Positions 1 through 54,836 of a stretch of DNA of 64,000 nt are shown here, in pieces. The stretch spans positions 1-64,000 of the forward strand of contig NW_027590511.1 of assembly GCF_964213995.1 (NCBI RefSeq), read 5' to 3'. The DNA comes from Mustelus asterias. Taxonomy: Eukaryota. Position 1 is the first letter of the stretch; each line of letters begins with the position of its first letter. The notes beneath the pieces were generated by a model. That model was not told the origin of the DNA. It saw nothing but the letters and a program-made list of their open reading frames with translations, and searched no databases. Position numbers and translations under genes: made by a program.

Positions 1-192
1 TTTCGGGGCTGGAGGGGATTGTTCTGGTTGACTGGCCGGGGCCTGGGGAACCTGTTCTTTGTCCAGGATGTATAATGCAGCCTCTGTGACCAGGCCTCAA
101 TCCCAGGCCTAACCTCAGGAAGGCTTTTGCATTTTGCTCCTTTTCCAAACAGTGCCTGTGTTTAAATCGATGGGACTCGACGGTCGAATAAA
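1..192 (+). other. Putative terminal exon/3'UTR copy A of an unidentified gene entering from the left edge
   Basis: Paralogous to 2172-2379 (shared GATTGTTCTG, ATAATGCAGCCTCTGTGAC, AGGCC hairpin, CTTTTGCATT); AATAAA at 187-192. Confidence 0.4.
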
Positions 193-212
193 ACCTGCAG
201 CAGACACTTTAA

Positions 213-662
213 TACAAAGAACAGCACAGCACAGGAACAGGTCCTTTGGCCCTCCAAGCCTGCGCCGATCATGTTTCCCTATCGAGACCAATGGCCTGTA
301 ACCCTCTATACCCCGTTTGTTCATGTGTCTATCCAGATAAATCTTAAATGTCACTAATGTATCTGCCTCAACCACCTCACTTGGCAGCGCATTCCAGGCC
401 CCCACCACCCTCTGTGTAAAAACCTTCCCCGCACATCTCCACTCAACCTTTCCCCCTTATCTTGAACTTGTTCCCCTTGTAATTATCATTTCTGTCCTGG
501 GAAAAAGCTCCCAACTGTTCATCCTCGCCACACCCCTCATAATTTTATAAACTTCCAGCTGGTCGTCCCTCAGCCTCCGTCTTTCCAGGGAGAACAATCC
601 CAGTTTATTCAATCACTCCTCACAGCCAATACCCTCCATACCAGGCAACATCCTGGTCAACC
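213..662 (-). mobile_element. CR1/HER1-type LINE 3' fragment
   Basis: Minus ORF 115-408 reads WNALPSEVVEADTLVTFKIYLDRHM, the typical CR1 ORF2 C-terminus, followed by a CR1-like 3' tail. Confidence 0.85.
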
Positions 663-2171
663 CTTTCATTGGATTTGGGATGTGATTGTGGGTTTTCCTG
701 CTATATCTCTTTCTCTTCAATCTTTCTCCCGTGATTGAGAGTTATCAGGGAGGGAGAGAGAGAGAAAGGGATGGTAACAGAGAGAGAGAGAGAGAAAGGG
801 ATGGTAACAGAGAGAGAGAGAGAGAGAGCAAAGGCAGAGGGGCAGGGAGAGGAGAGAGATTGGAGGGGAGTGGGTTAGCGGGTGGGGGAGGGGGAGCCTC
901 CGCTGTGCACTCACAGCCCAGCCAGCTCCCCAGTCTCTGGTTAGGTGCATTAACCCACTCTGGCGCATTAACAGGCGCCAGAGTGTGGCGACTAGGAGAA
1001 TTTCACAGTAACTTCATTGCAGTGTTAATGTAAGCCTTACTTGTGACTAAGAAATAAACTTTACTTTATACTTTACTCTGAGATAAAGACCCTCACTCAC
1101 AGCCTCCCAGAAGGTGGGATTTATAAACAGCGACTGTGTAACTGAGGCTGAATCTGTGCTGTTGTGTTTGAAAATATATTTTCCTCATATTTGATGTGTT
1201 GTAAAGATATTGGAATGTGGCTGCTACCACATTGCAGTGAGAGAGAGATGTAGCTTTGCAGAAGGAGCTTCCCTCCCCATTTCCCCATGGAAATCACTGA
1301 GAAATAGCAAACGTGGCCCACAACGCGTCATTATTTGAAACGGTCAGACAGAAACTTATCAGAGAGAGCATTTTAATCCCCATTCATCCCCAGACGGGGA
1401 AACAGAGCAGAGATCAGGACAGATTATCCAGAGTAGGAGAGACCGGGGCAGAGATGGGGTATTGGATATATATATAGATCTGGGGGGAAAGCAAAAGAGA
1501 CACAGAGGGGGCTGGACAGGTTCAGAGATAGAGGCAGAGAAACGGGCAGAGAGAAAGAAACAGCGAGAGACAGAGGGAATGGGAGAGAGAGGTGTGACTG
1601 TGCTCGGAGTGGAAGGTTCCCTGTTCATATCGAATATACAAACAGCCCCAATCCTGGAGTGACTCATTATTTTTATTTGGGGTGGGGGAGAGATGGAGGG
1701 GGGGGGGAGCGAGGGAGAGAGAGGGAGAAGTGTGGTTCCCTCATTGCCCACTCACTTTAGCCCAATCCTCACTTAAAATATCACTTTGTATCTGGCCCTG
1801 CTCAGACTGTGTGTGGGATCTTGCTGTGCCCTCCTCCCCACCCCATATTCCCTGCACTGTGACAGCGCCCCACACTTTAAACATGAAAAGATGGAGAGGA
1901 AGGAGGGTGGGGTAGAGAGAGAGGAACAGAGAATGGGTGGGGAGTGTCGGGGGCTCAGTGGAGGGGGGTAGGGGGATAGAGACAGAGGCTCTGGGGGTGG
2001 GTGGGTGTCCTCCTGCAGTGTGGGACTCCCTGTGGGATCCTGATTGCAGCATTCCCAGTCTCTCTCTCTCTCACTGTGAAGCACTCGGGAGGGAGAGGGA
2101 GCTGAAATTCAAATTCCTGAGCCTGGGGGAAAGGCTTGTTCTCAGTCCCACAGTCCTGCTTGTGTTTTCAG

Positions 2172-2379
2172 ACAGGGCGCTGGGATTTGTGGGTGTGGAT
2201 GGAGAAGATTGTTCTGTTTAACTGGGGGGTGGGAGAGAGGGGGGTTTGTTCTTTCTACCTGAGGAATAATGCAGCCTCTGTGACTAGGCCGCACTTCACG
2301 GCCTAAATCTCAGCAGCACTTTTGCATTCGCTTAATTCCCCAACAGGGTTTAAGTGGCTGAATTCAATGGTTCAATAAA
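2172..2379 (+). other. Putative terminal exon copy B
   Basis: Acceptor tgtgttttcag at 2161-2171 (alternative ACAG at 2172-2175); AATAAA at 2374-2379; paralogous to copy A. Confidence 0.4.
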
Positions 2380-2970
2380 ATGTGAAGCAGCCGCTTCAGG
2401 GTGGGATTGTGGATTTTCCTGCCCCCGCCTCCCTCTCATTTCCCTTTTGATTGTGAGTTTTATTTTAAACGGTCAGACAGAAACTTAGAGAGAGCATTTC
2501 AATCCAGATTCACCTCGAGGTAGAGAAACAGAGCAGAGATCAGGACAGGTTATCCAGAGACGGGGTATTGGACAGATATAGATCTGGGGGAAGTGTGTAG
2601 GAGACGGAGAGGGAGAAACAGAGTGAGGGGAGAGAGGTGACTGATAGAAGTGGGAACTTCATTGGGGCCTCCTGTGTTTATTCACTGGCCTGTCTCTGGA
2701 GTAAAGCCCCCAGAATGCTTTGACGTGTTTAATAAATTCAATATCGGGACAGTCAGGAGGCAGTTGGAAGTTCATTGCATTTGAAACGTGTTCCCATTTT
2801 GTCAGGGTTTAATAATGAGGAGGTGAAAATGAATGTTTCCCCCACCCCCCCCAGTGAGATTGTGAATTTCAGCAAGTCCTGGGATCTTGCTGTGCCTTTT
2901 ATTGTTTTTAATCAGCTTTTGTTTTGTGTTTAATCAAATTTCACTTTATTTTCTCTTTCTCTCTTCCAAG

Positions 2971-3070
2971 GAGAATTCCTTTGGAAACTTTGGCGATGCA
3001 GAGAGCGAATAGTTTTGCCATGAGGAATCCTCGGACAAGAGCTATAACCAGAGAGAAAAATATTAATAAA
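2971..3070 (+). other. Putative terminal exon copy C
   Basis: Long polypyrimidine acceptor ttttctctttctctcttccaag; phase-1 reading EFLWKLWRCRERIVLP* aligns with copy B RWDLWVWMEKIVLF; AATAAA at 3065-3070. Confidence 0.4.
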
Positions 3071-5811
3071 AGTCCCCGTGTCTTTGTCGTTCATTTTTAT
3101 ACACAGATAGACTGGTGGGGCTTTTACACTGAGGGTTAGTGGTCTGTGTGTCAGGGGGAGGGGGTATTCCCAGTGATCCCTGCTCCAATGTAATCCCACA
3201 GATTTCAATCCCTCTCCCTGAAGCTCTGTCTGTGCAACTCCCCCATCCTCAGAACTGTTTCTCCACATCTTTCCAATCCCTGTCTCTCCTCATCCTTTAT
3301 ACCTCAGCCTCTCACAATGGCAGCATCTTTCCCTTTTTCTCTCCTTCTCTCTGTCTTTCACTCTCTCTGAAACGTTGTCACTCTGTCTTGCCAAAGCCCC
3401 ACTTTCTACTTATCTCCACATCTCACTTTGTATCTCAGCCTCTCTGGACATCTCCCTCTCTCTCTCTGTGGATCATTTTATCTCAATCACAGCAGCCTCC
3501 TCTCCGTCTCTCTCTCTATCTCTGCTCCCCCCTCTGTCTATCTCTGCTCCCTCTCTGTGACTCATTCTGTCTGAAGTACAGCAGCATTCTCTCTCACTCC
3601 CCATCTCTATATCTGTTCACAATAACTTCATTGCAGTGTTAATGTAAGCCTACTTGTGATTAACAAATAAAATTTTAACTTTAACTCTACTTTTGTCTCT
3701 TATCTCTCTCTCTATCGCTTCCCTCTATCTGCTTCCCCCTCTCTCTGATCTCTGCTTCCCCCTCTGTGAATCAGTCTGAATTACAGTCGCATCCTCCCCA
3801 TCTCCCTGATCTCTGCTTCCCCCTCTCTGTGAATCATTCTGTCTGAATTACAGCAGCATTCTCTCTATCTCCATCTCTATATCTCTGCTTCTCTGTCTCT
3901 TATATCTCTCTCTCTGCTCTCTCGTGGGGGACGGGCCAGATCACGGGTTTGCTGTTCACAAGCAGCAAAGGCCCAGGAACGCAGAGGGAGGGAATCAGGG
4001 GCAATTCAGAGGGATCCAGCACTGCTGAAAGGGGGGAGTGTGTAATACAGGGGTTTGTTCAGAGCCGGGGCTATTAGACAGAGAGGGAAGGGGCCGGTGG
4101 GGGAGGCTGTTGTACAAGAGCGGGAAAAATTATAACACAGGCTGACCAGAGTCAGGGGTTATCAGAGAAAGGGGGCAATGGAGGAGGGGAGGGGGAATCA
4201 GACAGGGGGTCTGTTGTACAGGATGGGGGTGGGGGATGTTATAACACAGGCTGCTCAGTGTCAAGGGAATTAGTCATTTGAACGTTAATGTTTAAAATGG
4301 GCAGAGTTTCCACATCCAACTCCACCAGGAGCTGTTTACAGGGGGGTGGTGGACGGGGATGGACGCGCGGAGGGGGGGGGGTACTAATTAGAAAGGGGGG
4401 GATCTGTCAGTCCAGAGGCTGTTCACAGGGAGGGAGTGGGAATTTGCCAGGTTGAGAGGGGCGGGGGGGGGAAAGAGGGGAACTTAGAGGGATACGGGGC
4501 TCAGAGGGAAGGATCGGGAGATTTAGAGGGATTGTGAGGAGGGACGACAGATTTGGCTGGAGTGGGGGGGGGATTGAGGGGGATTAAAGGGGGAGAGTGG
4601 AGAGGGATGTAGGGGGAGACTCAGGGATTGTGGTCGGGAATTAGAGGGATTCAGGGGGATTTAAGGGTCTCATGGGGACTTTGGGATTTAGCGGGGCTGA
4701 GAGGGAGGGAATCGGGGGGAATTCGGGAAGAGGGGGCTCAGAGGGGGATTTCTGGGGTTCTGAGGGATACAGGAGGGATTGGGGGGTTTACGGGGATTAA
4801 AAGACATGGTTTGGTGCTCAGACAGATAGAAGGGGTGGGATTGGAGAGGGAGCAGGATTCGGGGGCAGAGGAATGTGGCGAGGGTGGGTGCGATCTCGGG
4901 AGACATTCAGGGGGGATTCCAGAGGAATCTCAGGGGCTTAGAATCTGGGGAGGGTCTGGATGGGGTAGGGAGTCAGAGGGAGTTAGCAGGGGGGCGAGTC
5001 GGGGTGGAGGGAAAGGGATTGAGGGCGGGGTGGATTTATAGGGATTTGGGAGGGGGGAAATTCAGAGAGGGATTTAGGGTGGGGCCTTGCATCAGGGTTA
5101 GAATTGGGGGGGTGTCGAGCGATTCGGAGTGGGGGGGTGACTCAGAGGGATTCAGGGGTGGGGAGGACTGAGGAAGGATTGGGTGGCTTGATTTTGGCAG
5201 GGGGGGGGCAAAGGGAGCCTTTGGGGGGGGGCTGAGGATTTGGGGCAGGAACTTGGAGGATTCAGGGGGCTGAGAGTCAGATTGGCAGTGGGTGTCAGAG
5301 AGATTGAGCGGGGGGAGGGGGTGCTTACAGAGTCGGATTAAAGGAGATCGGGCAGAGGGACAGGGAATCAGGTGGGGGAAAGAGGAGTTTTGGGGGGGAA
5401 TTAGTGGAGATTGAGGGCAGCGGGTTGAGAAGGATTGGGAGTGGCTCAGAGGGCTTTGGCGGTGAGTTCCTGAGAGAGAGTGAGTGGGGGGGGTGATTAG
5501 AGTGGGATTGGAGAAGATTGGGCAGAGAGGATCGGGGGGAGGGGCCGAGAGAGATTGGGCAGCAGGGAGGGTTAGAGGCGTTGAAGTGGAGGGATTTAGA
5601 GTGCGTTTCTGGAGTGGGGAATTAAGGAGGGGTTTGGGGGGGGGAGGGGAATTTGGGGGTGAGAGACTGAGGGTGGCGGGTTTAAAAGGATTGGGAGTGG
5701 GTTCAGGGGGGATTGAGCTGAGAGAGGAATCTATAGGGCATTGGCAGGAAGGGGAGGGGGGGAGATTCAGCAGCGGTTTTTGTGTCTGGTGGGAACAGCT
5801 GGAGACGGGAA

Positions 5812-7795
5812 GCGGGGGGGGCGCAAGTCGGGGGGGGCGCAATTCGGGGGGGGGCGCAATTCGGGGGGGGGGGGGCAATTCAGGGGGGGGGGCGCAATTC
5901 GGGGGGGGGCACTTCGGGGGGGGCAATTCGGGGGGGGGCAATTCGGGGGAGGCAATTCGGGGGGGGGCAATTCGTGGGGGGGGGCAATTCGGGGGGGGGC
6001 AATTCGGGGGGGGGGCAATTCGGGGGGGGGGGCAATTCGGGGGGGGCAATTCGGGGGGGGGGCAATTCGGGGGGGGGGGCAATTCGGGGGGGGGGCCATT
6101 CGGGGGGGGGCCATTCGGGGGGGGGGGCCATTCGGGGGGGGGGGCATTCGGGGGGGGGCATTCGGGGGGGGGGCCATTGGGGGGGGGGCCATTCGGGGGG
6201 GGGGCAATTCGGGGGGGGGGCGCAATTCGGGGGGGGGGCGCAATTCAGGGGGGGGGGGCGCAATTCGGGGGGGGCGCAATTCGGGGGGGGGCGCAATTCG
6301 GGGGGGGGGCGCAATTCGGGGGGGGGGCGCAATTCGGGGGGGGCACTTCGGGGGGGGGCAATTCGGGGGGGGCAATTCGGGGGGGGCAATTCGGGGGGGG
6401 GCAATTCGGGGGGGGGCAATTCGGGGGGGGGCAATTCGGGGGGGGGCAATTCGGGGGGGGGGCAATTCGGGGGGGGGGCAATTCGGGGGGGGGGCAATTC
6501 GGGGGGGGGGCAATTCGGGGGGGGGCAATTCGGGGGGGGGGCCATTCGGGGGGGGGCCATTCGGGGGGGGGCCATTCGGGGGGGGCCATTCGGGGGGGGG
6601 GCAATTCGGGGGGGGGGGGCAATTCGGGGGGGGGGGGCAATTCGGGGGGGGGGCAATGCCCGGGGGGGGCAATGCCCGGGGGGGGGGGGGCAATGCCCGG
6701 GGGGGGGGAAAGCCCGGGGGGGCAATGCCCGGGGGGGGCAATGCCCGGGGGGGGGCAATGCCCGGGGGGGGGCAATGCCCGGGGGGGGGCAATGCCCGGG
6801 GGGGGGCAATGCCCGGGGGGGGGGAAAGCCCGGGGGGGCAATGCCCGGGGGGGGAAATGCCCGGGGGGGGGCAATGCCCGGGGGGGGGCAATGCCCGGGG
6901 GGGGCAATGCCCGGGGGGGGCAATGCACGGGGGGGGGCGATGCCCGGGGGGGGCGATGCCCGGGGGGGGGCAATGCCCGGGGGGGGGCAATGCCCGGGGG
7001 GGGCAATGCCCGGGGGGGGGCAATGCCCGGGGGGGGGCAATGCCCGGGGGGGGGCAATGCCCGGGGGGGGGCAATGCCGGGGGGGGGGGCAATGCCGGGG
7101 GGGGGGCAATGCCGGGGGGGGGGCAATGCCGGGGGGGGGGGCAATGCCGGGGGGGGGGGCAATGCCGGGGGGGGGGCAATGCCGGGGGGGGGGCAATGCC
7201 GGGGGGGGGGCAATGCCGGGGGGGGGGGCAATGCCGGGGGGGGGGCAATGCCGGGGGGGGGGCAATGCCGGGGGGGGGGCAATGCCGGGGGGGGGGCAAT
7301 GCCGGGGGGGGGGCAATGCCGGGGGGGGGGGCAATGCCGGGGGGGGGGCAATGCCGGGGGGGGGGCAATGCCGGGGGGGGGGGCAATGCCGGGGGGGGGG
7401 GGCAATGCCGGGGGGGGCAATGCCGGGGGGGGCAATGCCGGGGGGGGCAATGCCGGGGGGGGCAATGCCGGGGGGGGCAATGCCGGGGGGGACAAAGCCC
7501 AGGGGGGGGACAAAGCCCAGGGGGGGGGACAAAGCCCAGGGGGGGGGAGGGACAAAGCCCAGGGGGGGGGAGGGACAAAGCCCAGGGGGGGGGAGGGACA
7601 AAGCCCAGGGGGGGGGAGGGACAAAGCCCAGGGGGGGGGGAGGGACAAAGCCCAGGGGGGGGGAGGGACAAAGCCCAGGGGGGGGGGGGGGGGGGAGAGG
7701 GACAAAGCCCAGGGGGGGGGGGGAGGGACAAAGCCCAGGGGGGGGGGGGGGGGGACAAAGCCCAGGGGGGGGGGGACAAAGCCCAGGGGGGGGAA
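5812..7795. repeat. G-run tandem array, (G7-11 CAATTC)n grading into CAATGCCC, CAATGCC and ACAAAGCCCA units
   Basis: Seen directly; unit cores are fixed while G-run length varies; abuts an N gap. Confidence 0.95.
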
Positions 7796-8147
7796 NNNNN
7801 NNNNNNNNNNNNNNNNNNNNNNNNNNNNNNNNNNNNNNNNNNNNNNNNNNNNNNNNNNNNNNNNNNNNNNNNNNNNNNNNNNNNNNNNNNNNNNNNNNNN
7901 NNNNNNNNNNNNNNNNNNNNNNNNNNNNNNNNNNNNNNNNNNNNNNNNNNNNNNNNNNNNNNNNNNNNNNNNNNNNNNNNNNNNNNNNNNNNNNNNNNNN
8001 NNNNNNNNNNNNNNNNNNNNNNNNNNNNNNNNNNNNNNNNNNNNNNNNNNNNNNNNNNNNNNNNNNNNNNNNNNNNNNNNNNNNNNNNNNNNNNNNNNNN
8101 NNNNNNNNNNNNNNNNNNNNNNNNNNNNNNNNNNNNNNNNNNNNNNN

Positions 8148-8500
8148 GAAAGATTGAGAAAGACAGAGCGAAAGATTGAGAGAGAGATTGAGAGAAAGAT
8201 TGAGAGACAGAAAGATTGAGANNNNNNNNNNNNNNNNNNNNNNNNNNNNNNNNNNNNNNNNNNNNNNNNNNNNNNNNNNNNNNNNNNNNNNNNNNNNNNN
8301 NNNNNNNNNNNNNNNNNNNNNNNNNNNNNNNNNNNNNNNNNNNNNNNNNNNGATTGAGACATAGAAAGATTGAGAGATAGAAAGATTGAGAGATAGAAAG
8401 ATTGAGAGATAGAAAGATTGAGAGATAGAAAGACAGAGATTGAGAGAGAGATTGAGAGAGAGAAAGGTTGAAAGAGAGAAAGATGGAGAGGGAGATTGAG
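8148..8500. repeat. (GAAAGATTGAGAGATA)n purine-rich minisatellite
   Basis: Seen directly on both sides of the N gap at 8222-8351. Confidence 0.85.
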
Positions 8501-8577
8501 AGGAGGCTGCAAACAGAGAGAAAAGCAGGGCTGAGGCGGGAAAGGTGCGGACAGAAAGTGAAGAGGTTCATACTCAC

Positions 8578-8633
8578 CATCGCACATGTTTTCCCTCGGT
8601 GATCTCTCCAACTCCTTCCATCCCCTCTCCCAT
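8578..8633 (-). CDS. First coding exon of an unidentified gene, MGEGMEGVGEITEGKHVR (exon 8578-8668)
   Basis: Acceptor ccctttcccag; perfect Kozak ccaccATGG at 8633; GTGAGT donor at 8577; non-coding micro-exon and TATA box upstream. Confidence 0.45.
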
Positions 8634-8748
8634 GGTGGGGAGAGAGATCCTTGGCCAGGGGCTTTGTGCTGGGAAAGGGGGGGTTACAATATCAGAGCTG
8701 GAACTCCATGCAAGCACACACTGACTCACTCACAAAGACACAGCTTAC

Positions 8749-8837
8749 CTGATACTTACCAACCCACGTGTAGAGAGAGACTGGACAATGCATCGCCAGC
8801 CTTTTTATAACCTCACTGAGTCCCACACCTCCCCAAT
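8749..8837 (-). promoter_or_regulatory. TATA promoter plus non-coding first micro-exon with two tandem GTAAG donors
   Basis: TATAAAAA at 8809-8802; CCAAT at 8833-8837; Inr-like CCAGTCT about 30 nt downstream of the TATA; donors at 8759 and 8748. Confidence 0.5.
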
Positions 8838-10739
8838 CAATCCTTATCCAACCACAGCTCCTCCACCTCACCTGAACACACCTCCTCCTACCTGGCCCAG
8901 TCCAACACCAACCTGTCTCTGACTGTGTGGGGGGGGTGTTTGTGTGTGGGGGTTAGTGAGCACCAGGCAAATGGTTTATCCCAAGGCTCTCCCTCCCCCC
9001 CACTCCCAGCTTCACATCACCAGCACTGGGAGCTGAGAGAAGATGGGTTTCAATTAACTCGCAGCCCTGCACTGCCAGAGAGAGAGAGAGGCCAGGTCTG
9101 AATGTGGATTGTACAACTTGTTCATCCAGGACTCCATCTGCTACAGGTTTGCACCCTTTGCTGATTCTTGCAAAATTCACTTTTCCTTAAGTTGCCTGAA
9201 CTGAAACAATATCTTGCAAAGTTCTTTGTTGCTGCGTTTACAAATCCCAGTTCTGATTTACAATCTGCCTGTTGTCTGTCCGGGTGTGTGAATGTGTGTG
9301 TGTGCCCTGTGCTTAGTGGTTAATAATTCACCAGAGATCAGAGCTGCAAAATAAAGCGTTTCAACTTTTTTTAACAGAAGCACTGTCTGGGGGAGGGGAG
9401 GGAGAGAATGAGAGTGAAGTTTCTGTCTGATGAATGCTGTAAATGTGTCTTTAACCAGCAGCTCTGCAGAGAGACAGATGCAGGATTTTAAACTCTCTGG
9501 GAGCTGCAGGCAGGGACTCACACACACACACACTCACACAGATAGACATCAGCTCCTGTTTCACACCAACAACCAGGCTGGAGTCTATGCAGCTAATTTC
9601 CATCCAGAAATGTACTTGATCCATGAAGTCAGTGAGGGTTACATTCCCATGACTTCCCATTCAGTCCAATCCAGCTCAGTTTGTTGGAATGCAGTGTGGG
9701 AGCCTCTGAGGGAGTTTGGCTCGGGGGGCGGGGGGGGGGGGTTCACTTTTCTCTCATTCAATCTCTCCTGTCTTCCACCCTCTCACAGACCTTCCTTTCG
9801 TCCCTGTCCCACCCGCCCCTTTCTCCAAACCTGTTACATTTCTAACTTTCCCCAGTTCACAGGAAAGGTCACAGAGCTGAAATGTTAACTCTGTTTCTCT
9901 CTCTCTCTCTGCACAGATGCTGCCGAACCTGCTGAGTTTAATTCCAGCATTTCCCTGTTTTCTAAGATTTCACAGAATAGTGTTGGTGCAGGAGGAGGCC
10001 ATTTGGCCCATCGTGTCTGCACCAGCTCTCCAATGTGCTGTTAAATCAGAGATTGGTGTAAAACTGGGATCTGTTCCTGACTGAGAGCAAAACGGCAGCT
10101 TTACATTTCCAACCTGAAAATAACTGGCCAATATTTTGTGCAGATTGTTACCAGTTCCTTGCTTGTGGTCTATCCCTAACTGCCCTTGAACTGAGCGGCT
10201 TGCTTGCTGGGCCATTCCAGAGTCAACCACATCGTGTGGACCTGGATTCACATGAAAGACTTACAGGGACTACCAGACCTGCTGAGATTTTCCAGCATCC
10301 TCTGGTCTTATTCTGGAGTCGGATAAATTCCTTCTCTGAAGGGCATCGGTGAACCAAATGGGTTTTAACGGCAATGGTTTCATGGCCATCACCAGGCCTT
10401 TAATGACAGATTTTTATTGAATTGAGATTTCACTATTTGCTGTGGTGTGATTGGAAGCTGGCTGGCTCTGGGCTCCCAGCCCAGTGACAATACCCCCACA
10501 CCATCAGACTGAGAGCATTTGTGTGATAGTCCCCAGTCTACCACTTTCAGGCCGGTCTCAATATGTTTAAAATAAACCGTTTTAAAATAAATCAATTCAA
10601 GTCTAATTAAATACGAGTTGGAGGAATTCACAGGAGCCTGGGGCAGTTTTCTAACACATTACCATCTTTCTATAGATAAGGAATCAAGTATTGTACACAA
10701 TACTCCAGATGTGGTCTCTCCAATGCCTTGCACAATGGA

Positions 10740-11125
10740 AACATACTGGAATTTAGAAGAATGAGAGATCACTGACAAGATGATAAAAGGTACGGATAAA
10801 GTAGACGTGGAGCGGATGCTTCCTCTTGTGGGGCATTCTAGGACGAGAGGTCACAGTCTTAGGATAAGGGGCAGCAAATTTAAAACAGAGTTGAGGAGAA
10901 ACTACTTCTCCCAAAGGGTTGTGAATCTGTGGAATTCGCTACCCCAAAGAGCGGAGGATGCTGGGACAGTGAGTAAATTTAAGGAGGGGTTAGACAGATT
11001 TTTAATTGGTGATGGGTTGAAGGGTTATGGGGAGAAGGCAGGAAAATGGGGATGAGGAGCATATCAGCCATGATCGAATGACGGAACGGACTCGATGGGC
11101 CGAATGGCCTAATTCTGCTCCTATA
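10740..11125 (+). mobile_element. CR1 LINE 3' fragment
   Basis: ORF 10780-11055 reads TRGHSLRI...RRNYFSQRVVNLWNSLP; tail gatgggccgaatggcct. Confidence 0.9.
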
Positions 11126-11483
11126 TGAGGAATTTCTGACCCGTCCTATTTAATAATACATTTTCTCGTAATAAATGGTACCATTTTATGACATTTCTAA
11201 TTAATTGCTGTACCTGTATATTAGCCCCTTTTGATTCATGCCCAAGGACGGCCCAATCCCTCTGTCCCTCAGAATGTTGTGATCTCGCACCATTTAGTTA
11301 TTAAGTGTATTTTATATTCATCAGGCCAAAATGTACATTTTCACATCCGCCCACATAAACACAATTTGGCGAAGCTTTGCCAATTCACTGAACTATTTAT
11401 GTCCCTTCATCGTCCCCTTACATCCTCATCACCATTCATTTTCCAATCTATCGTTGTGTCGTCAGCAAACTTAACATCCATAT

Positions 11484-12770
11484 CTGCTCTGTAACATATC
11501 ACTGTGTAATCTAACAATTAATCCAGTTCCCCTGGATTACTGCTCTGTAACATATCACTGTGTAATCTAACAATTAATCCAGTTCCCCTGGATTACTGCT
11601 CTGTGACATTTCACTGTGTAATCTAACAATTAATCCAGTTCCCCTGGATTACTGCTCTGTAACATTTCACTGTGTAATCTAACAATTACTCCAGTTCTCC
11701 TGGATTCCTGCTCTGTATCACTTCACTGTGTAATCTAACAATTAATCCAGTTCCCCTGGATTACTGCTCTGTAACATTTCACTGTGTAATCTAACAATTA
11801 ATCCAGTTCCCCTGGATTACTGCTCTGTAACATATCACTGTGTAATCTAACAATTAATCCAGTTCTCCTGGATTCCTGCTCTGTATCACTTCACTGTGTA
11901 ATCTAACAATTAATCCAGTTCCCCTGGATTACTGTTCTGTAACATATCACTGTGTAATCTAACAATTAATCCAGTTCCCCTGGATTACTGCTCTGTGACA
12001 TTTCACTGTGTAATCTAACAATTAATCCAGTTCCCCTGGATTACTGCTCTGTAACATTTCACTGTGTAATCTAACAATTACTCCAGTTCTCCTGGATTCC
12101 TGCTCTGTATCACTTCACTGTGTAATCTAACAATTAATCCAGTTCCCCTGGATTACTGCTCTGTAACATTTCACTGTGTAATCTAACAATTAATCCAGTT
12201 CCCCTGGATTACTGCTCTGTAACATATCACTGTGTAATCTAACAATTAATCCCGTTCTCCTGGATTTCTGCTCCGTAACATATCACTGTGTAATCTAACA
12301 ATTACTCCAGTTCTCCTGGATTCCTGCTCTGTATCACTTCACTGTGTAATCTAACAATTAATCCAGTTCCCCTGGATTACTGCTCTGTAACATTTCACTG
12401 TGTAATCTAACAATTAATCCAGTTCTCCTGGATTCCTGCTCTGTAACATATCACTGTGTAATCTAACAATTAATCCAGTTCTCCTGGATTACTGCTCTGT
12501 AACATTTCACTGTGTAATCTAACAATTAATCCAGTTCTCCTGGATTACTGCTCTGTAACATTTCACTGTGTAATCTAACAATTAATCCAGTTCTCCTGGA
12601 TTTCTGCTCCGTAACATATCACTGTGTAATCTAACAATTAATCCAGTTTTCCTACATTAATGCTCTGTATCTCTTCACTGTGTAATCTAACAATTAAAGC
12701 AGTTTTCCTACATTAATGCTCTGTATCACTTCACTGTGTGATCTAACAATTAATCCAGTTCTCCTGATTT
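11484..12770. repeat. 56-bp tandem satellite, about 23 monomers, with a 7-monomer (392-bp) higher-order repeat
   Basis: Monomer CTGCTCTGTAACATATCACTGTGTAATCTAACAATTAATCCAGTTCCCCTGGATTA; the variant CTGTGACATTT recurs at 11601 and 11993; an isolated partial monomer lies at 12968-13012. Confidence 0.97.
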
Positions 12771-12837
12771 ATGTTTCCCTGTATCAATGTGTAATGGAAC
12801 CCACTCCTGATACCGTGATCACACAAACACGGTGAGG

Positions 12838-12855
12838 GAGCTCCCTCTGGTGGTG
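12838..12855 (-). promoter_or_regulatory. CTCF-like motif
   Basis: Minus strand CACCACCAGAGGGAGCTC, close to the CTCF core CCASYAGRKGGCRS. Confidence 0.4.
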
Positions 12856-13899
12856 ATCTGAGGTAAATGGCCTCTGCTTGGGAGATCAGTGAATTCTCAG
12901 ACTACTGGAGGATCTTTCTTGTTGCAGGATTACGCTGCTGTATTTTTCTTAGGAATAAGAAAAATACGCTCTGTAACATATCACTGTGTAATCCAACAAT
13001 TACTCCAGTTCTCCTTTTTAAACTGTTCATTTATTCTTGAACTTAATTTTCAATGTATACCTACTCTTAAGCTCAGGACACTCAGTAACCGATCTCCGTA
13101 ACTATTTTCACACCTGATCTTTATTGACATTCCTTGGACAGTCCATGTCAGAAAGCACTGAAGATGTTTTCTTGAAAATCAGTTGATTTTTTGACAATTC
13201 GGAACTATCCCTTATTGAAGAATATTATCACTGATATCGAGGAACGTTCACTAATCAATGATTGTTTTCACAGATGGTTACTGATCTGTAAACTGTGAAT
13301 GTTGTTGTTTAAGAGTTGGGATGTAATTTCCGATCTGTGCTTCTTTATGGTGGAAATGTTTAGTAGATCGTGAGCTTAATTCAGTTTCTCAACGTGTTTA
13401 TCTGTTCATTGTACATTGGGATAATAAATCTGTGGATATCTCCATTAAAAAATCACGTTTAAATTTTACTTTCATCATTTGCCTACCGTTTGTATTGAAG
13501 ATTTTGCATTTGTGTGCGTGTGCATGAGCATCTCGTGCTCTGCATTAATCTTTGGCTCTGAGTTAATATGTGTTTATGAGTGTTAATGTGCGCGTTCATT
13601 TGCCAGTGATTGTTGATTTGTGTAGTTGTGTGTCTGCATCTGTGCGCATATTTTATTCTTTTGTCATTGTGTATATATGACTATTATTGTGTGAAGTCTA
13701 TGAATATATATTAATGCCACTCTTAATGCGTGCTATATGTCACTCTAATAATGTTTGTTTCCCTTTCTGTGGAGTTGCCGGCGTTGGACTGGGGTCGGCA
13801 CAGTAAGTAGTCTCACAACACCCGGTTAAAGTCCAACAGGTTTATTTGGTTGCACGAGCTTTTGGAGCGTTGCCCCTTCATCAGGTAACTACTTACTGT

Positions 13900-15020
13900 T
13901 TCCCTTTCTGTGTGCGTCTGTTTCTCCATGAGTCTGTGTGCACGCCTGTTAACATGTCAGTGTATGTATACACGTGTTGCCATTCTTTATAACGGTGCGT
14001 TTATGTATATTTGTGTTTCGATGTGTGGTAATGTGTGCTATGATGTTCTGTTCTATGAGCATGTTAATGTTTGCGTCTACATGTTTGTGTGTAAATGTTT
14101 TGCTGTCTGTTCTTCTATATGCAGTCTGGTGATTTGTTTCTATGTATTTCCATATATGTTTGTGAATGTGTATAACATTGTGTGTCTTTATATCTATATT
14201 CCTATCAGCGTGAACGTGTGCTAATATATATATGTATTTATTTGAGTCAAAGTATGTGCTTGTGTATTTATGTGGGTCTGCATGCGTGTGTATCTGTCTG
14301 TATTGTGTCGATGCATATATGTGTTTGTGTTTGGGTCTGTACCTACTCACGTATGTGTATGTGTATGTACTTGTGTGTTTCATGTGTACATGTGTGGTTT
14401 GTACATATTTGATTATGTGTGTGTATGTTGTTGTTTTAGTGTCTGTTTGTACAAGAGCGCGTGTCTATGTGTTTGTATGTGTGTGTGTGTATGTGTGCGT
14501 CTGTGTGTGTGTGTGTGTGTGCGAGTGAGAGAGAGAGAATGGGTGTGTCCCTATGTATATTTGTGTACGGATGTGTTTGTGTATGGGTGTATTTTTGTGT
14601 GGGTGTATTTGTGTAAGTGTGTATTTCTGTTTGTGCATGTTTTGCCCATGAGTGCATTTGTGTGTGCATTCTTGTTTCTCTGCATGTGTGTTCGTCTGTG
14701 CAAGTATTGAGTGTACCTATGGTGTGTGAAAGTGTATCTGTTGTGTATTTGTGTGTTTCTGTGCCTGTATTTGAATGTGCCTGTCCCTATTTCTGTATAT
14801 GTATGTGTGTGGGGGAATGTGCATGCGTTTGTGTGTGTATATTTACATGTGTCTTTCTGCATTTGTGTGCATATGTGTGAGTATGTGTATTTGTGTGTGT
14901 AGTTGTGCATTTGTGTCGATGTGTGTGTGTGTGTGTATGTGTGTGAGTGTGTGTGTGTGCGCTTATGTGTGTATTTATAATTGTGACAGTTTTGTGGAGT
15001 ATTGTCAGTGTGTGTATTTT
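13900..15020. repeat. Degenerate (TG)n low-complexity tract
   Basis: Seen directly. Confidence 0.9.
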
Positions 15021-16071
15021 TTAGCTGTTGCTCCAAGTTTCACCGCAATCATTAACTGAAAATGATCCAAACAATACGAATAATGGAGCATATTTTCAAT
15101 GTTTTGCTGTATGAATGTAGCTTATGTGAGTGGCACGGTGATATCAGGAGAACGAATCAAATCATTCATTGATGCATCTCGGAAGCATCAGGGACAGAAC
15201 AGTGAAAACTGGGGAGGATTCAATCATTTGTTTCAATTTGCATTGTGGGAAATCACTGCCAGGACATGATTAACAGGAACAAGAGTGCAGAAACATTTTT
15301 AAATTATGTTACATAAGTATATATGCATCACATTGATTAAGATAATGATACTTCAAACTCTGCAGCAAATAAACCGGAAGCTAATTTGTACTGTTGGCAA
15401 CTGGGTTCTTCGAGTAGAGAGCTGGTCCCTTCCAAACACGTTACTTGCGAAGAGGGAGGGAGTGAGCTCATAATTTCCCTCTCTCTACCCGGTGAAGCAA
15501 TGTGCCTGATGGTTCTAACCACTGACGAGGTGGAGGTGAGTGGATTAAATAATGCCATTCCTCCTCTTTTCATTGAGGAAGTGGTGGTACATGGGTTAGC
15601 TACTGCTCTCCCCTCTCTTTGTTGGGTGAGTAGGAATCTGGTATGTTAACAATTTCACTCTCCCTCTCTCTCTGATGGGGGATTGTTGCTCCATGTGTGA
15701 CCCTCACTTCAGTTCCCAGTGGGTGTGGTGCAGCAGCTTAAATATGACATCAATGGTAAAGGCATGGACAACGAGAGAAGCAGGAACACCGAGATCTAAA
15801 TGTTGTGTTTGTTTGTCAGAAATGTTGAATTTGTCAGATTTCTCCTCAGTGGGAGGAAAGTCGGTGAAGATATTTTGCAGAATACTGTAATGAATGTGCT
15901 CTACTCTGTCTCTAACCCAGGGTGTATCTGAGCTGGGTGCACTGGTTCAACAAGGCTTGGGCCCGAGACGTGAAAATACCTGACTCAAACCAAAGATACA
16001 TAGTGGAAGTAAAATTGAAAACCAATCAATTAAGCAATTGGGTATTTCATTTATCGTTGGAGGAAAAAGAT

Positions 16072-16086
16072 TTTATTCTTTTTATT
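16072..16086 (-). terminator. Two poly(A) signals for secretory mu mRNA
   Basis: Minus-strand AATAAA at 16086-16081 and 16077-16072, 28-37 nt after the tailpiece stop. Confidence 0.85.
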
Positions 16087-16113
16087 GAAGTTTTTAATGT
16101 AACCGAGTGATTC

Positions 16114-16505
16114 TCATTGACATGAATTAACGGTGTCCATCAGTGCAAGGGAAATGTTCACAAAACTGGGTTTACCGCTGGATTTGTCAACTGTTCTGTT
16201 GATGATCTTCAAGGGGATGGCTTCATGTCCCACCACACAGGAGTAAGAAGCGCCGCTGGACCATTCCTCTGCTGCAATGGATAACAGGCTGTACATGAAG
16301 AAGGAACTATTCCCGCTCTCCGCCACCACCTCGGTGTTCCTGTAGTTCCCAGGATTCACCGGCTTGTCGTTGACGGTCCACTTGACGAAGATCTCTCGAG
16401 GGGAGAAACGTCTCACTAAGCAGCTGAGGGAGACGAATCTCTGAGCGGAGACTTCTTCTGCCGAGGGCAAGAGGACAGAGACGAACGGTTCCCGCGGATT
16501 TGGAT
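16114..16505 (-). CDS. IGHM: IgM Cmu4 exon plus secretory tailpiece
   Basis: [31 protein letters not shown]...WTV...[43 protein letters not shown]. The tail has the NIS sequon and penultimate Cys; the internal G|GTAAA donor for membrane splicing is at 16175. Confidence 0.97.
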
Positions 16506-17007: not shown

Positions 17008-17316
17008 CTGTTTCCTTGTGGATGGATTTTCTTAAAGGAGTCGGCAGATCCTGATGGCTCACCACGCAGTCAAACACAGCCGTACTCAGCCAGGCTTGTG
17101 TCGAGATGTTTAAGTTGCTGACCACGCTGTCAGGATCCGCTCCAGGCTTTTCGGCAATCTCTGATTTCAAATACTTCCTGTCTCGGATCCAGGACACGTT
17201 GACTCCATAGGGAGCATGAGAAATGATGCAGGTTAAGGTCACGGTCGCCTCCAGTAAGACCTGTTCTATTGGTGGTGGCTGTATCGTCACTGTGGTATCA
17301 GGGCACTGGGGAGGAT
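17008..17316 (-). CDS. IGHM: IgM Cmu3 exon
   Basis: [30 protein letters not shown]...VSW...[22 protein letters not shown]; phase-1 AG/GT boundaries. Confidence 0.96.
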
Positions 17317-19509: not shown

Positions 19510-19809
19510 ATTGCATTCCAATGCTCTTGACCGAGCTGCTGTGTCGAACCTCACACTTGATTTTGCTGCACTCTCCCTCTGACTGGGTGATGGTTAACTG
19601 GCTGCTCAAGGTGTAGGTTCCCTTCGCGTTTCTCACTGATGGATAAGTCTTAAATCCAGTGGCGATCAGCTGCCCATTTTTCTTCCAGGTCAGTTTGGAG
19701 ACATCTGGAGAGTAGTCCATCGCCAAACAGCCGTAGGTGATGGAGCCAGCGGAGTTGTGTTGCTGACAGGAAGAGACGAGGCTGTAGAGAGTGGGCGGAG
19801 ACGGTGTCG
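19510..19809 (-). CDS. IGHM: IgM Cmu1 exon
   Basis: [46 protein letters not shown]...[12 protein letters not shown]...CEVRH, the shark mu CH1 signature; acceptor tttcccag, donor GTAAGT. Confidence 0.97.
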
Positions 19810-21613: not shown

Positions 21614-23050
21614 GAGGGGCGGGGAGAGTGTGTGTGAGCGAGAAAAAGTGTGAAACTTAGACAGAATGGATGCGTGAGTGTGTGTGAGTGAAATGACTGT
21701 TGAGAGAACATGTGTCTGTGATAGGTGGAGTGTTTAAAGAGCGATACATTGTATATACATGTGTGTTCGAGTGTAAGAGAAGGAGAGACTGTGTGAGAGA
21801 TTGTGTGCGTGTGAAAGAGAGGGTGTTTGTGAGAGACAGGGTTTGAGAGCAAGATTGTGCATGTGAGACAATGTGTAAGGGGGAGGGTCGGGATGGCGAC
21901 CTCCTCGTGAACCTGCTCCTGGGCCTGGCGAAACGCGCCATTTACCGGTCCAGGCTGCGGGCGATCGAGGGGGCCGTCCATCCTGACTGTCTTCCCCTCT
22001 ACCGCGGCTACGGTCGCGGCCAGGTGTCCCTGGAGAGGGAGCATGCGGTGTCCACGGGCGAGGTTGACGCTTTCCGCGCCCGCTGGGCACCGCAGGGGTT
22101 GGGGTGCATTATTGGCCCTAATAATCACATTTTAATTTGATGTTTTTAAGTTTCCTTTGTACTTTGATTTCTGTTCGGGCTGTTCCCCCTCCTTTTTGGG
22201 GAGCTGCCCCTTTTACTTTGTCCTGATTTAATCTGAGTTTGTTTACTTGGTTTGGTTTGACCTAAAAAGAGGACAATGTGTAAGGGAGTGAGCGTGTGAA
22301 ATAGAGAGAAATATGTGCCTGTGTGAGAGAATACATGTGCAAGTGTTCGTATGAGTGAGAGAGGGCATCGGAATGTGTGTGAGACGAAGTGAGAGTGTAC
22401 GGAAGAGGGAATGTGAGAGGCATAGTGCATGTGTGTGTGAGAGAGCGAATGTGTGCGCGAGACTGTGCTTATGGGAGAGACTGTGTCTGTGTGTAAGAGT
22501 GTGTGTTAGAGTGTGTGCATGTTCTATGTTTGTGAGAGAGTGATTGTGAGAGAGCCAGTGTGTGAGAGCAAGAATGTAGAGGTGTGAGATAGTGTGCGCA
22601 AGAGAAATAGAAATATGTGCGTGTGTGTGTGTGTGAGAGAGAAAGAGATGCGTGTGCGAGAGGAATTGTGAGAGAGCGTGTGGAGAAATGTGAGACAGCT
22701 TGAGCGTGTGTGACAGAGAGTGGGAGAGAGTCCATGTGAGAGTGCGTGCGCGAGGGTGTGAGACTGTGCTGATGTGAGAGTGTGTGTCTGTGTATAAGAG
22801 AAAATGGGTGGGTGTGTGGGGATGTGAGCGCTTTTGTGGATGGGGATGTGAGAGATTGATGGAGAGAGCGAGACGATGTATGTATTTGTATTGAGAGAGT
22901 GTATGTGTAACGTGAGAGAGAGAATGTGTATGGGTGTGTAAGAGAGACCGTATGAGAGAGAAAGTAAGTGTGAGTATGTATGTGTGTGTGTGTGCATGTG
23001 TGAGAGAATATGAGAGTATTTATGTGTGTGAGAGTGTGTGATGTGTATAA
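21091..23050. repeat. (TG)/(GA)-rich low-complexity tract in the J-C intron
   Basis: Seen directly. Confidence 0.85.
21882..22271 (+). mobile_element. 5'-truncated Tx1 copy (390 bp) with a 15-bp target-site duplication
   Basis: Near-identical to the 3' end of the 50796-58000 element; TSD GACAATGTGTAAGGG at 21867-21881 and 22272-22286. Confidence 0.95.
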
Positions 23051-28327: not shown

Positions 28328-28395
28328 GGTTTTTGTATTGACAGTAACTGCTGTGCCACCCAGTTATCACAGTGAGACACAGCATGACAAATACT
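28328..28395 (-). other. DH segment (D2-type) ATAACTGGGTGG at 28356-28367, flanked by two 12-RSS
   Basis: J side: CACAGCA+12+ACAAAAACC (28355-28328, minus strand). V side: CACAGTG+12+ACAAATACT (28368-28395, plus strand). Confidence 0.95.
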
Positions 28396-28732: not shown

Positions 28733-29043
28733 ATCCCACTGTAGTGCACAGTAATAGATGGCGGTGTCTTCGGTCTTCAGCCTTGTCATCTCCAAAGAGA
28801 AGATTTTGGTTGAAGTGTCTTTAGACGCACTAAATCGATCCTTAATTGCTGGGGCGTAGCTGTTGCTGGATGAACTATAGTAGCGAACCAGCCACTCCAA
28901 CCCCTGTCCTGGAACCTGTCGGATCCAGTACATGTTATAGCTGCTAAGATCGAAGCCGCTGGTTTTACAGGTCAGTGTCAGGGAGCCTCTGGGACGCCCG
29001 GTCTCTGCCTCTGGCTGAGTCAACACAACCTCCGACTGGACAC
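28733..29043 (-). CDS. IGHV: IgM VH exon (28745-29043), fused in frame to a D1-like 12-mer (28733-28744)
   Basis: [104 protein letters not shown]; canonical Cys/Trp/Cys. Confidence 0.96.
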
Positions 29044-29174
29044 CTGTAAAAATAGTTGAAAAAACACGAGGATTAATCCTGGTGTAATGATTTTTGACTC
29101 GGGAATATTACAGAGATGGACTAAAACTGAGACAGTAACTGTGGGAGACTTAGACAATGAAAATAACTACTCAC

Positions 29175-29220
29175 CGGATAAGAAAGTCAGCAACAAACTG
29201 AGAGAAATCGCCGACCTCAT
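29175..29220 (-). CDS. IGHV: VH leader exon MRSAISLSLLLTFLS(G)
   Basis: ATG at 29220; hydrophobic signal peptide; G|GTGAGT donor; 131-nt intron to the V exon. Confidence 0.95.
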
Positions 29221-50732: not shown

Positions 50733-50795
50733 AGATGTTGGAGAGACAGAAGGAAGTTTCAGTCTGTCTGAAGCTCAATCTTCATTCAGAGAGAC
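50733..50795 (-). other. Putative 3' part of the ZNF first (non-coding) exon; Tx1 insertion target
   Basis: Ends at a strong T|GTGAGT donor (50732), on the same strand as and upstream of the ZNF exons. Confidence 0.5.
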
Positions 50796-50921
50796 CTCTT
50801 TTTAGGTCAAACCAAGTAAACAAACTCAAATTAAATCAGGACAAAGTAAAAGGGGCAGCTCCCCAAAAAGGAGGGGGAACAGCCCGAACAGAAATCAAAA
50901 TGCAAAGGAAACTTAAAAACA

Positions 50922-53900: not shown

Positions 53901-54815
53901 CCGCCTCTTTGTCGACCCCCTCGCGTACCCCTGACAGAAGGTACGGACGTGAGTCTTGCCCACATCCCACCAGAGCCTCAAGGAGGGGAAGCCTCCCCGC
54001 TTCCTTCTCCAGCCGGCCCAGAATCGACGGAACGAGTCCAGGAAGCGCTCGTCCTCCAGCAGCGTGTTGTTAAAGTGCCAGTACGCGGACCCCCGCCGGA
54101 TGCGAGACGGCGCAAAGTCCGCCCACACCAGGCTGTGGTCCGTGCTCGACACCGGCCGCATGGAGACCGAGGACACGCCGGACACGTGCGCCTTCGAAAT
54201 GTAAAGGCGGTCGAGCCTGGACGCTCCGACTCCAGGCCTCACGAAAGTGAAGGCGCTGGAGCCAGGATGGAGATGTCTCCAGACGTCCACCAAGTCGTGG
54301 GACCCGATCAGGTCCCGCAACTTCACCACCGCCGGAGTGCGCAGCCAGGGGCCGGTGCGGTCCCGTGCCTCGAGGATGCAGTTGAAATCTCCCCCGAGGA
54401 TAATGCATTCGCCCCCCGCGATGGTGTCGATGTGAGCGGACACTTTCTCGTAGAAAGTCGTTTGCTGCGGTCCAGCGGTCGGGGCGTAGACATTCAGCAA
54501 GTGAATGACCACGCCCCCCTCACGGACCGTCAAGTGCAGCAACCGGCCTGGCACCGGCTCCTTGACCCCCAAGATCTCCGGCTTATAACGCGGGGCCAAC
54601 AAGATAGCCACCCCGCAAGAAGCGAGCGTGAGGTGGCTCATGTAGACCCCCCCTCGCCACTCCAGGAGCCATTGGGCTTCGTCTCCCGGAACGGTGTGGG
54701 TTTCCTGCAGGAAACACACCGCATACTTCCCGTCACGGAGGACCGAGAAGTTCTGGAACCTGCGGTGTGGCCCACTGCTGCCGTTGATGTTGAGGCTGGC
54801 TATGGTCACCTTCAT
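50922..54815 (-). CDS. Tx1 ORF2p, 1297 aa: APE endonuclease, reverse transcriptase, C-terminal zinc motif
   Basis: SLNING, LQETH, NVYAP, GGDFN, SRLD, TDH; KAPGLDG, WRPVSLL, DQEKAFDRV, GVRQGCPLS, YADD; CPFCG..ESVDH...C. Confidence 0.97.
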   Translation of the reverse strand: MKVTIASLNINGSSGPHRRFQNFSVLRDGKYAVCFLQETHTVPGDEAQWLLEWRGGVYMSHLTLASCGVAILLAPRYKPEILGVKEPVPGRLLHLTVREGGVVIHLLNVYAPTAGPQQTTFYEKVSAHIDTIAGGECIILGGDFNCILEARDRTGPWLRTPAVVKLRDLIGSHDLVDVWRHLHPGSSAFTFVRPGVGASRLDRLYISKAHVSGVSSVSMRPVSSTDHSLVWADFAPSRIRRGSAYWHFNNTLLEDERFLDSFRRFWAGWRRKRGGFPSLRLWWDVGKTHVRTFCQGYARGSTKRRKSRLEELEKEVLDLEARLSRPDADPALRSEYREKKDALRDLQLARSRGAYVRSRLQFQVDLDRGSPFFYSLERGRANRQQLLTLLADDGSPVSDPEGIRAIAREYYTSLFSPDPSSEDARRLLWEDLPQVGPEGVGRLEAPTTMAELTGALNGLSRGKAPGLDGLTVEFFRAFWDVLGSDYAGVLGDSVATGEMPLSWRRAVIALLPKKGDLHLLKNWRPVSLLSTDYKIFARAMASRLGSVLDHLIHPDQSYTVPGRCIHDNLHLVRDLIHHTQRAGLSGAFLSLDQEKAFDRVEHEYLLGTLRAFGFGTHFVARIRLLYSAAECLIKVNGSLTAPLRFGRGVRQGCPLSGQLYSVCVEPFLRLLRRRLSGLVLRGPDVGVVLSAYADDVLLMFTDPADLRRMRECQAVYSAASSARINWAKCSGLLVGPWETDPLPEELRPFTWSRTNLLYLGAHLCPAEESWPANWRELEAKVSARLGRWTGLLRVLSYGARARVINQLVASMLWYRLVPLTPPPGFVTDIQRTLVRFFWGNRLHWVPAAVLYLPLEEGGQGLVCLRTQIATFRLQALQRYLYVEPPPQRCAMATYFFRQWHGLNYDVQLLHIELGRASTALQELPVFYQDLLTVWNKVASRRSSPPSGVAALVREPLLRNPLLQPYNFRWLAERGAVDAGVTRIGDVLDGGGAGWMSPRVLAERAGTSVRRAAKAILDLRTVVLGPETARKLETAQACGGIPPERSPVRAEFHIGPKPQPPPLGEVPHSLSRLAEMPSVPFSTARRRFLCGLLLHTFHYRLLACRPDTPWRALLPPGGGGPRWRSLYGGISPNYVGDLGWRVMHAAVPHNRRIHWFTGSEDCPFCGLVESVDHVYVECLRLHSLYVFLKNLLLMFCLHFSPTLLIYGHPVRRGEGRDGDLLVNLLLGLAKRAIYRSRQRAIEGAVHPDCLPLYRGYVRGQVSLEREHAVSTGEVDAFRARWAPQGLGCIIDPNNHILI

Positions 54816-54836
54816 GTCAGCAGCTTTGTGCCACCG

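What the first reader, a model, noticed from the sequence alone, without database searches (positions are those of the whole stretch)
8840..16113. Intact secretory IgM cluster with no visible transmembrane exons
Seen: Cmu4 keeps its internal G|GTAAA donor (16175). By eye I found no CART-type TM1 exon (IWTTASTFIVLF...YS..VTLVK-like) or VK* TM2 exon in the gap-free 7.3 kb before the next promoter (about 8810). That interval holds low-complexity DNA, a satellite and LINE/SINE debris. Inference: the cluster may be secretion-only, unable to form a B-cell receptor itself. Together with the pre-joined VD1, it could supply innate-like secreted antibody co-expressed with another cluster, or act as a partner in inter-cluster switching.
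Basis: partly seen in the sequence, partly recalled or inferred. Interest (0 to 1): 0.7.

Follow-up and report, generated by a model that had tools for sequence, protein, structure and literature searches.

The report
Shark IgM gene missing membrane anchor
This shark antibody gene is intact except that it breaks off 78 bases before its membrane-anchor exons and is fused to zinc-finger gene DNA, so it is predicted to make only secreted antibody; it is likely an accident of an unstable locus, but it would let one test how shark B cells limit themselves to one antibody.

Summary
Observation confirmed and explained. The IgM cluster (L, V-D1 pre-joined, D2, J, Cmu1-4, secretory tail, poly(A)) has open frames, but there is no TM exon in the window or in overlapping contig C1148 (104 kb beyond the break). 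In 52 of 55 close paralogues TM1 lies 3.1-4.8 kb after Cmu4. Here the IgM intron stops at 13008, 78 bp short of TM1, and joins a multicopy zinc-finger-array block through an 8-bp microhomology. A second private junction (47682, 3 bp) fuses the upstream flank into a zinc-finger exon, so 34.7 kb of IgM DNA sits inside zinc-finger DNA. Two other intact clusters lost TM independently at Tx1-LINE junctions; similar junctions cut other clusters elsewhere. This points to random breakage, not a selected secretory class. The VD1 join is not coupled to TM loss, and D2/J must still rearrange, so 'innate-like' is unsupported. Expression is untested. Likely behaviour, by analogy with mouse membrane-exon knockouts: no receptor, no feedback, passenger secretion beside a second cluster. 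The scan's notes held no TM-less intact IgM; an IgM/zinc-finger fusion was noted in another genome.

The parts
29175..29220 (-). IgM leader exon
   Evidence: ATG at 29220, donor at 29174, open frame
28733..29043 (-). VH exon with D1 already joined (ends YYCALQWD), followed by the D1 3' RSS at 28732-28695
   Evidence: About 450 bp V-D1 interval of C89 and C194 is missing; V end trimmed; V-set domain; this exact join is in 1 of 9 VD1-type matches
28328..28395 (-). D2 (28367-28356) with 12-bp-spacer RSS on both sides
   Evidence: RSSs as in C89
27914..28000 (-). J RSS and JH (27961-27914)
19510..19809 (-). Cmu1
   Evidence: open; 87 of 98 aligned residues identical to Triakis scyllium IgM P0003
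18237..18548 (-). Cmu2
   Evidence: open; 83 of 98
17008..17316 (-). Cmu3
   Evidence: open; 95 of 101
16072..16505 (-). Cmu4 with orphan internal donor (16175), secretory tail with penultimate Cys, stop 16114, two AATAAA
   Evidence: open; 125 of 129; 3' UTR like paralogues
13008..16071 (-). Cmu4-TM intron, truncated 78 bp before TM1
   Evidence: 97-98% to C89, C2511, C2355 down to the break
13008..13015 (.). Downstream junction: 8-bp microhomology shared by the IgM intron and a 56-bp-satellite-type unit
   Evidence: pattern only on C479 and C1148
1..13015 (.). Multicopy block found beside zinc-finger gene arrays (satellite 11484-12766, LINE/SINE debris, G-run repeats)
   Evidence: 40 of 40 scored copies 93-100% identical, 1728 candidates; 5.5 kb after a same-strand ZF exon in C988
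47680..47682 (.). Upstream junction: 3-bp microhomology between a C2H2 zinc-finger exon and IgM upstream DNA
   Evidence: pattern only on C479
47680..50794 (-). 5' part of a C2H2 zinc-finger gene, cut inside its finger array
   Evidence: 97-99% to C124:1010191-1016624, which continues with more fingers
21880..22272 (-). 393-bp Tx1-type LINE 3' end inserted in the J-C intron with a 15-bp target duplication
   Evidence: absent at the C89 site

Best explanation
This is an IgM heavy-chain cluster with intact V-D1, D2, J, Cmu1-4 and secretory tail whose DNA ends 78 bp before TM1 at a microhomology junction with zinc-finger-array DNA, likely an unselected germline rearrangement, and it is predicted to make only secreted mu chain as a passenger. 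Shown: both ends of a 34.7-kb IgM segment are private microhomology joins (3 bp, 8 bp) to zinc-finger-array DNA in that array's native order; TM1, TM2 and the membrane 3' UTR are gone. Inferred: (1) it arose by microhomology repair or template switching, either as an incomplete copy dropped into the array or as two deletions; (2) it can finish D2-J rearrangement; (3) its chain cannot reach the surface, so it gives no feedback and no selection signal; (4) a B cell using it must complete a second, TM-bearing cluster; (5) if still transcribed at the plasma-cell stage, it adds an unselected chain to secreted IgM.
For: Junction anatomy. 52 of 55 Cmu4 copies at 96% identity or more have TM within 3.1-4.8 kb; 3 do not. 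The three sit on separate starred branches, one clade rejected (32 of 35 rows kept, p-AU 2e-46), with different breakpoints: microhomology here, Tx1 LINE joins in C150 and C194. Junctions with the same block or Tx1 also cut clusters in the leader intron and after Cmu1 (C1179, C325), and orphan TM stumps exist (C123, C173): breakage all along the gene. Junction is in two contigs that differ by 8 substitutions over 14.4 kb. Mouse precedent: loss of the mu membrane exon abolishes allelic exclusion and secreted-mu transgenes do not exclude (PMC2195600, passage). Shark B cells carry one to three VDJ (PMC2435157, Discussion).
Against: All three TM-less clusters keep open V and Cmu1-4 frames; pooled private changes are 8 synonymous and 7 nonsynonymous against about 11.6 nonsynonymous expected (p 0.01; window alone 3/3, p 0.14), but these include the time before TM loss and ignore transition bias. 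The tree could be distorted by gene conversion. The two flanks match different best copies (C124 upstream; C91/C181 downstream), so no single empty site was found. No expression or single-cell data. C1148 may be an assembly overlap of the same chromosome rather than a second allele.
Confidence: 0.6

Rival explanations
1. Silent pseudogene: the same DNA event, but loss of downstream (or J-C intron) regulatory DNA leaves it unrearranged or untranscribed, so it makes nothing.
For: Everything 3' of 13008 is replaced; about 3 kb of the J-C intron is deleted and a LINE piece inserted. Nurse shark pseudogene groups showed no rearrangement on Southern blots (PMC2435157, passage).
Against: Promoter region, RSSs, splice sites, frames and poly(A) signals match paralogues; the deleted J-C DNA that was viewed is low-complexity repeat and SINE (1300 of 3215 bases printed).
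Confidence: 0.2
2. Selected secretion-only IgM subclass: TM-less clusters are kept as a source of co-expressed natural antibody or as one-way switch acceptors that commit a cell to secretion.
For: Three independent intact cases; excess of synonymous private changes; inter-cluster switching is reported in nurse shark (PMC4279169, passages); catfish has a separate gene for secreted IgD (PMC5192425, passage).
Against: Breaks fall all along clusters; no TM-less copy is amplified or forms a clade; VD1 join uncoupled from TM loss; divergence from TM-bearing sister only about 2%.
Confidence: 0.1
3. Assembly or sample artefact: chimeric read, misjoin at the satellite, or a somatic rearrangement.
For: The window is at a contig start; both junctions are private to this locus; satellite nearby.
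Against: The junction lies about 240 bp outside the array and shares only 8 bp, too little for an overlap misjoin; it is carried by two contigs overlapping 15 kb that are not identical; two other clusters show the same kind of event by other breakpoints.
Confidence: 0.08
4. TM exons displaced, not lost: a very large insertion (over 104 kb) separates them and they are still spliced.
For: C1148 ends at its base 1, so DNA beyond is unseen; 25 of 120 TM matches have no Cmu4 within 60 kb.
Against: The only orphan TM in the top-scoring class (C123:556108) carries intron from position 1852, well upstream of this break, so it is not the partner; nor is C173:318520 (2 of 25 orphans fetched). A proximal poly(A) site would out-compete a splice over more than 100 kb (own knowledge).
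Confidence: 0.02

Closest known systems
Elasmobranch IgM mini-cluster, partly germline-joined VD-D-J type (PMC5192425 and PMC4279169, passages; Kokubu 1988 not held)
   Same: L-V-D-D-J-Cmu1-4 layout, RSS spacing, secretory tail, one pre-made join.
   Different: No TM1/TM2; nested in zinc-finger-array DNA.
Mouse mu membrane-exon knockout and secreted-mu transgenes (PMC2195600, passages; PMC2119054, abstract)
   Same: mu gene able to encode only the secreted form; predicted loss of feedback and escape from tolerance.
   Different: Natural, one of about 100 clusters, so B-cell development is not blocked; function not tested here.
Nurse shark IgM1gj (P0009; PMC4279169, PMC5192425, passages)
   Same: Germline-joined shark IgM known as a serum antibody. 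That no membrane form was found is recalled, not seen in the papers read.
   Different: IgM1gj is fully VDJ-joined and lacks Cmu2; this cluster has all four domains, needs two more joins and is about 2% from a TM-bearing sister.
Channel catfish secreted IgD gene (PMC5192425, passage)
   Same: A separate Ig gene devoted to the secreted form.
   Different: That gene is expressed, V-less and IgD; expression here is unknown.

Membership tests
Elasmobranch IgM cluster | V, D segments, J and Cmu1-4 in one mini-locus with open frames | tested here: met
Elasmobranch IgM cluster | Secretory tail and poly(A) signal in Cmu4 | tested here: met
Elasmobranch IgM cluster | TM1 and TM2 exons a few kb downstream | tested here: not met
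Elasmobranch IgM cluster | Rearranges and is expressed in B cells | not testable with these tools
   no RNA holder listed
Germline-joined VD-D-J cluster | V fused to D1 with loss of both RSSs and the interval, D2 and J unjoined | tested here: met
Germline-joined VD-D-J cluster | Join inherited, not somatic | tested here: inconclusive
   one contig only; eight other VD1-type matches, three of them identical to each other
IgM1gj | Complete germline VDJ | tested here: not met
   D2 and J carry RSSs
IgM1gj | Cmu2 absent | tested here: not met
   Cmu2 at 18548-18237, open
Selected secretory-only Ig class | Shared origin or amplification of TM-less copies | tested here: not met
   three separate origins
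Selected secretory-only Ig class | Coding constraint after TM loss | tested here: inconclusive
   3 synonymous, 3 nonsynonymous private changes

The most novel reading that the evidence does not exclude
Sharks repeatedly turn IgM clusters into secretion-only genes that escape heavy-chain exclusion and tolerance: B cells carry a second, unselected antibody that is released only at the plasma-cell stage, or switch onto these anchorless constant regions as a one-way step to secretion.
Probability: 0.12. Interest if true: 0.75.

Novelty: new variant of a known kind. Interest (0 to 1): 0.42.

Why it matters
How a shark B cell with up to about 100 heavy-chain clusters ends up with one receptor is open: PMC2435157 says rearrangement 'probably' ceases on receptor expression. 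Intact clusters lacking only the anchor are natural membrane-exon knockouts inside the same cell population. If feedback needs membrane IgM, in-frame VDJ at these clusters should be unselected and coexist with an in-frame VDJ elsewhere. They also mark inter-cluster switching, since their V can reach the surface only on another cluster's constant region. The locus also shows how zinc-finger arrays and a young LINE drive birth and death of IgM clusters.

Tried and rejected
Hidden TM in window or C1148: none by tblastn, HMM, blastn or acceptor scan. Cryptic hydrophobic exon at 3041: phase-1 reading is 33 aa with several internal basic residues, 13 kb away, present in native blocks; rejected as a TM substitute. 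Single origin of TM-less clusters: rejected (3 of 35 rows left out for short cover). Empty pre-insertion site: not found among the zinc-finger or block copies fetched. Public runs: no RNA holder listed. Contigs of 6 of 20 listed runs were laid (X1, X3, X4, X7; X1, X3, X5, X6): no listed piece bridges 13008; the TM-leading form was listed in X1, X3, X4, X5. These contigs drop rare variants, so this says nothing either way; the junction remains unconfirmed outside the assembly. Public V proteins: 10 hits, best 84%, none with this join as far as the table shows. Rfam: 0 at gathering for the window, 3 weak chance-level hits in 1-11500. Divergent TM-less Cmu4 copies (7 of 50 at 70-95%): 6 fetched; five are fragments or have stops, C2117 has open Cmu1-4 but no V before its contig start. 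Literature: searches listed no paper whose title or abstract start reports a TM-less intact shark IgM cluster; the primary papers most likely to mention one (PMC2590587, PMC2569000, PMC420240, PMC454840) were not held, so absence from print is not shown.

Full report
What is there. The minus strand holds a shark IgM mini-cluster: leader 29220-29175, V 29043-28733, D2, J 27961-27914, Cmu1 19809, Cmu2 18548, Cmu3 17316, Cmu4 16505-16114. All frames are open, splice sites and RSSs match paralogues, and Cmu4 is 125 of 129 identical to Triakis scyllium IgM. The secretory tail, two AATAAA and the internal donor at 16175 are intact. The window begins at base 1 of contig C479.

The TM exons are absent. 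Five public shark TM tails find nothing in the window. In the genome the P0012 tail finds 120 matches among 125 of 125 scored candidates, none on C479 or C1148. Pairing these with Cmu4 matches: 52 of 55 copies at 96% identity or more have TM 3.1-4.8 kb downstream; C479, C150:828303 and C194:115253 do not. The assembly holds many near-identical duplicates, so these are contig copies, not loci. C1148 overlaps window 1-14974 and runs 104 kb beyond the break with no Ig or TM exon.

The break. Identity to TM-bearing paralogues (97-98% to C89, C2511, C2355) stops at 13008; in C89 TM1 starts 78 bp further and TM2 (IK*) 136 bp after TM1. Eight bases (13015-13008) are shared between the IgM intron and a satellite-type unit that opens a multicopy block, seen natively in C194, C181, C988 and C170. 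The junction pattern occurs only on C479 and C1148, which differ by 8 substitutions over 14.4 kb, seven of them in the first 1.4 kb; so two non-identical representations carry it, though they may be one chromosome. The junction is about 240 bp outside the satellite array.

The other end. At 47682-47680 IgM upstream DNA is fused by 3 bp into a C2H2 zinc-finger exon that continues in C124 and nine other top copies; this junction is unique to C479. In C988, C172 and C150 a same-strand zinc-finger exon precedes the block by a few kb. So 34.7 kb of IgM DNA sits between two halves of that native order: an incomplete copy inserted into the array, or two deletions. No single empty site matched both flanks best, so the two cannot be separated.

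Recurrence. C150 and C194 also have open V and Cmu1-4 and unjoined V. Their introns end at other positions, each against a 99% copy of the Tx1-type LINE found full length in this window. For C150 the contig ends 7 kb after Cmu4, so a displaced TM is not excluded there. A tree of Cmu3-Cmu4 DNA puts the three on separate branches, the window sister to TM-bearing C89 (branch lengths 0.010 and 0.009), and rejects one clade. The same block or LINE cuts other clusters in the leader intron and after Cmu1 (C1179, C325); 14 of 90 V matches lack Cmu1, 4 of 94 Cmu1 lack Cmu4, 15 of 105 Cmu4 lack Cmu1 (some are contig ends or below threshold). TM loss is thus one outcome of general breakage; a break in this 3-kb intron happens to spare the secreted form.

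The VD1 join. About 450 bp between V and D1 is gone and the V end is trimmed, as RAG joining would leave. Nine VD1-type matches exist; six have a C region and five of those keep TM. D2 and J still need joining, so specificity is not fixed. Whether this join is inherited rests on one contig.

How it likely works. Inferred steps: the cluster completes VDJ; with no TM1 acceptor the Cmu4 poly(A) site is the only exit (own knowledge of mu RNA processing); the chain cannot form a receptor. In mice, loss of the membrane exon abolishes allelic exclusion and secreted-form transgenes do not exclude (PMC2195600, passages citing the primary work); secreted-only self-reactive chains escaped tolerance (PMC2119054, abstract). 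Unpolymerised secretory IgM is held back by ERp44 in human cell lines (PMC11729874, passages), so release would likely wait for the plasma-cell stage. Shark B cells carry one to three VDJ, and rearrangement 'probably' stops on receptor expression (PMC2435157, passages and Discussion). Hence a passenger chain beside a second cluster's receptor (0.6), against silence (0.2), a selected subclass (0.1) and artefact (0.08). Inter-cluster switching (PMC4279169, passages) could rescue its V or use its C; untested.

Against my reading. Pooled private coding changes in the three TM-less clusters lean synonymous (8 versus 7; p 0.01 uncorrected), which could mean constraint but includes pre-loss history. 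Nothing outside the assembly confirms the junction, and no expression evidence exists.

Comparison. It works like a natural mu membrane-exon knockout; it is a member of the partly joined shark IgM clusters except for TM; it is not IgM1gj (fails both defining features). PMC12227049 (passages) covers the Ig/TCR linkage and has no occurrence of 'zinc'. Key primary papers were not held and no supplements were read, so an earlier description cannot be excluded. Earlier scan notes held no intact TM-less IgM, but noted decaying copies in this genome and an IgM/zinc-finger fusion in another.

Verdict. Real, mechanistically clear at the DNA level, probably incidental, but a useful natural test of heavy-chain exclusion. 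New variant of a known kind; interest 0.42.

Noticed in passing
window 50795-57743 (-): Full-length Tx1-type LINE (label by resemblance, recalled): ORF1 761 aa and ORF2 1304 aa with endonuclease and RT, both open; 97-99.5% copies elsewhere, several inserted in zinc-finger genes, and at the C150 and C194 junctions. A second partial copy follows at about 57900-59150.
   Followed up: partly
window 50-160 and 2240-2350: Two related 80-110 nt stretches (78% alike) that fold as hairpins (minus strand z -2.2 and -2.8) in the multicopy block; no Rfam match; possibly small-RNA units.
   Followed up: partly
window 2960-3070: Exon-like stretch with plausible acceptors on both strands and an AATAAA on the plus strand; gene not identified.
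   Followed up: partly
window about 40060-39560 (-): Broken VH relic upstream of the functional V, also present upstream of C89.
   Followed up: no
window about 20830: About 3 kb of the J-Cmu1 intron (SINE and low-complexity repeats in C89) is deleted relative to paralogues.
   Followed up: partly
L124 (C1179:55900-62400); V matches also at C91:1128488, C325, C1012, C1007: V-D1-D2 joined, leaderless IgM relic fused to the same block and truncated after Cmu1; five similar V copies lie beside block copies.
   Followed up: partly
L101/L168 (C2117:11424-15072): A fourth open Cmu1-4 set (86% subfamily) with no TM in 19 kb downstream, followed by LINE and zinc-finger exons; no V before the contig start.
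   Followed up: partly
L043 (C89:1489920) and L155/L096 (C138): TCR-like V exons a few kb from IgM constant regions, as in the published Ig/TCR linkage.
   Followed up: no
L085 (C437:1113): Another VD1-joined V, 97% like the window's V region and sharing the join's 3' end, on a different, TM-bearing Cmu subfamily.
   Followed up: no
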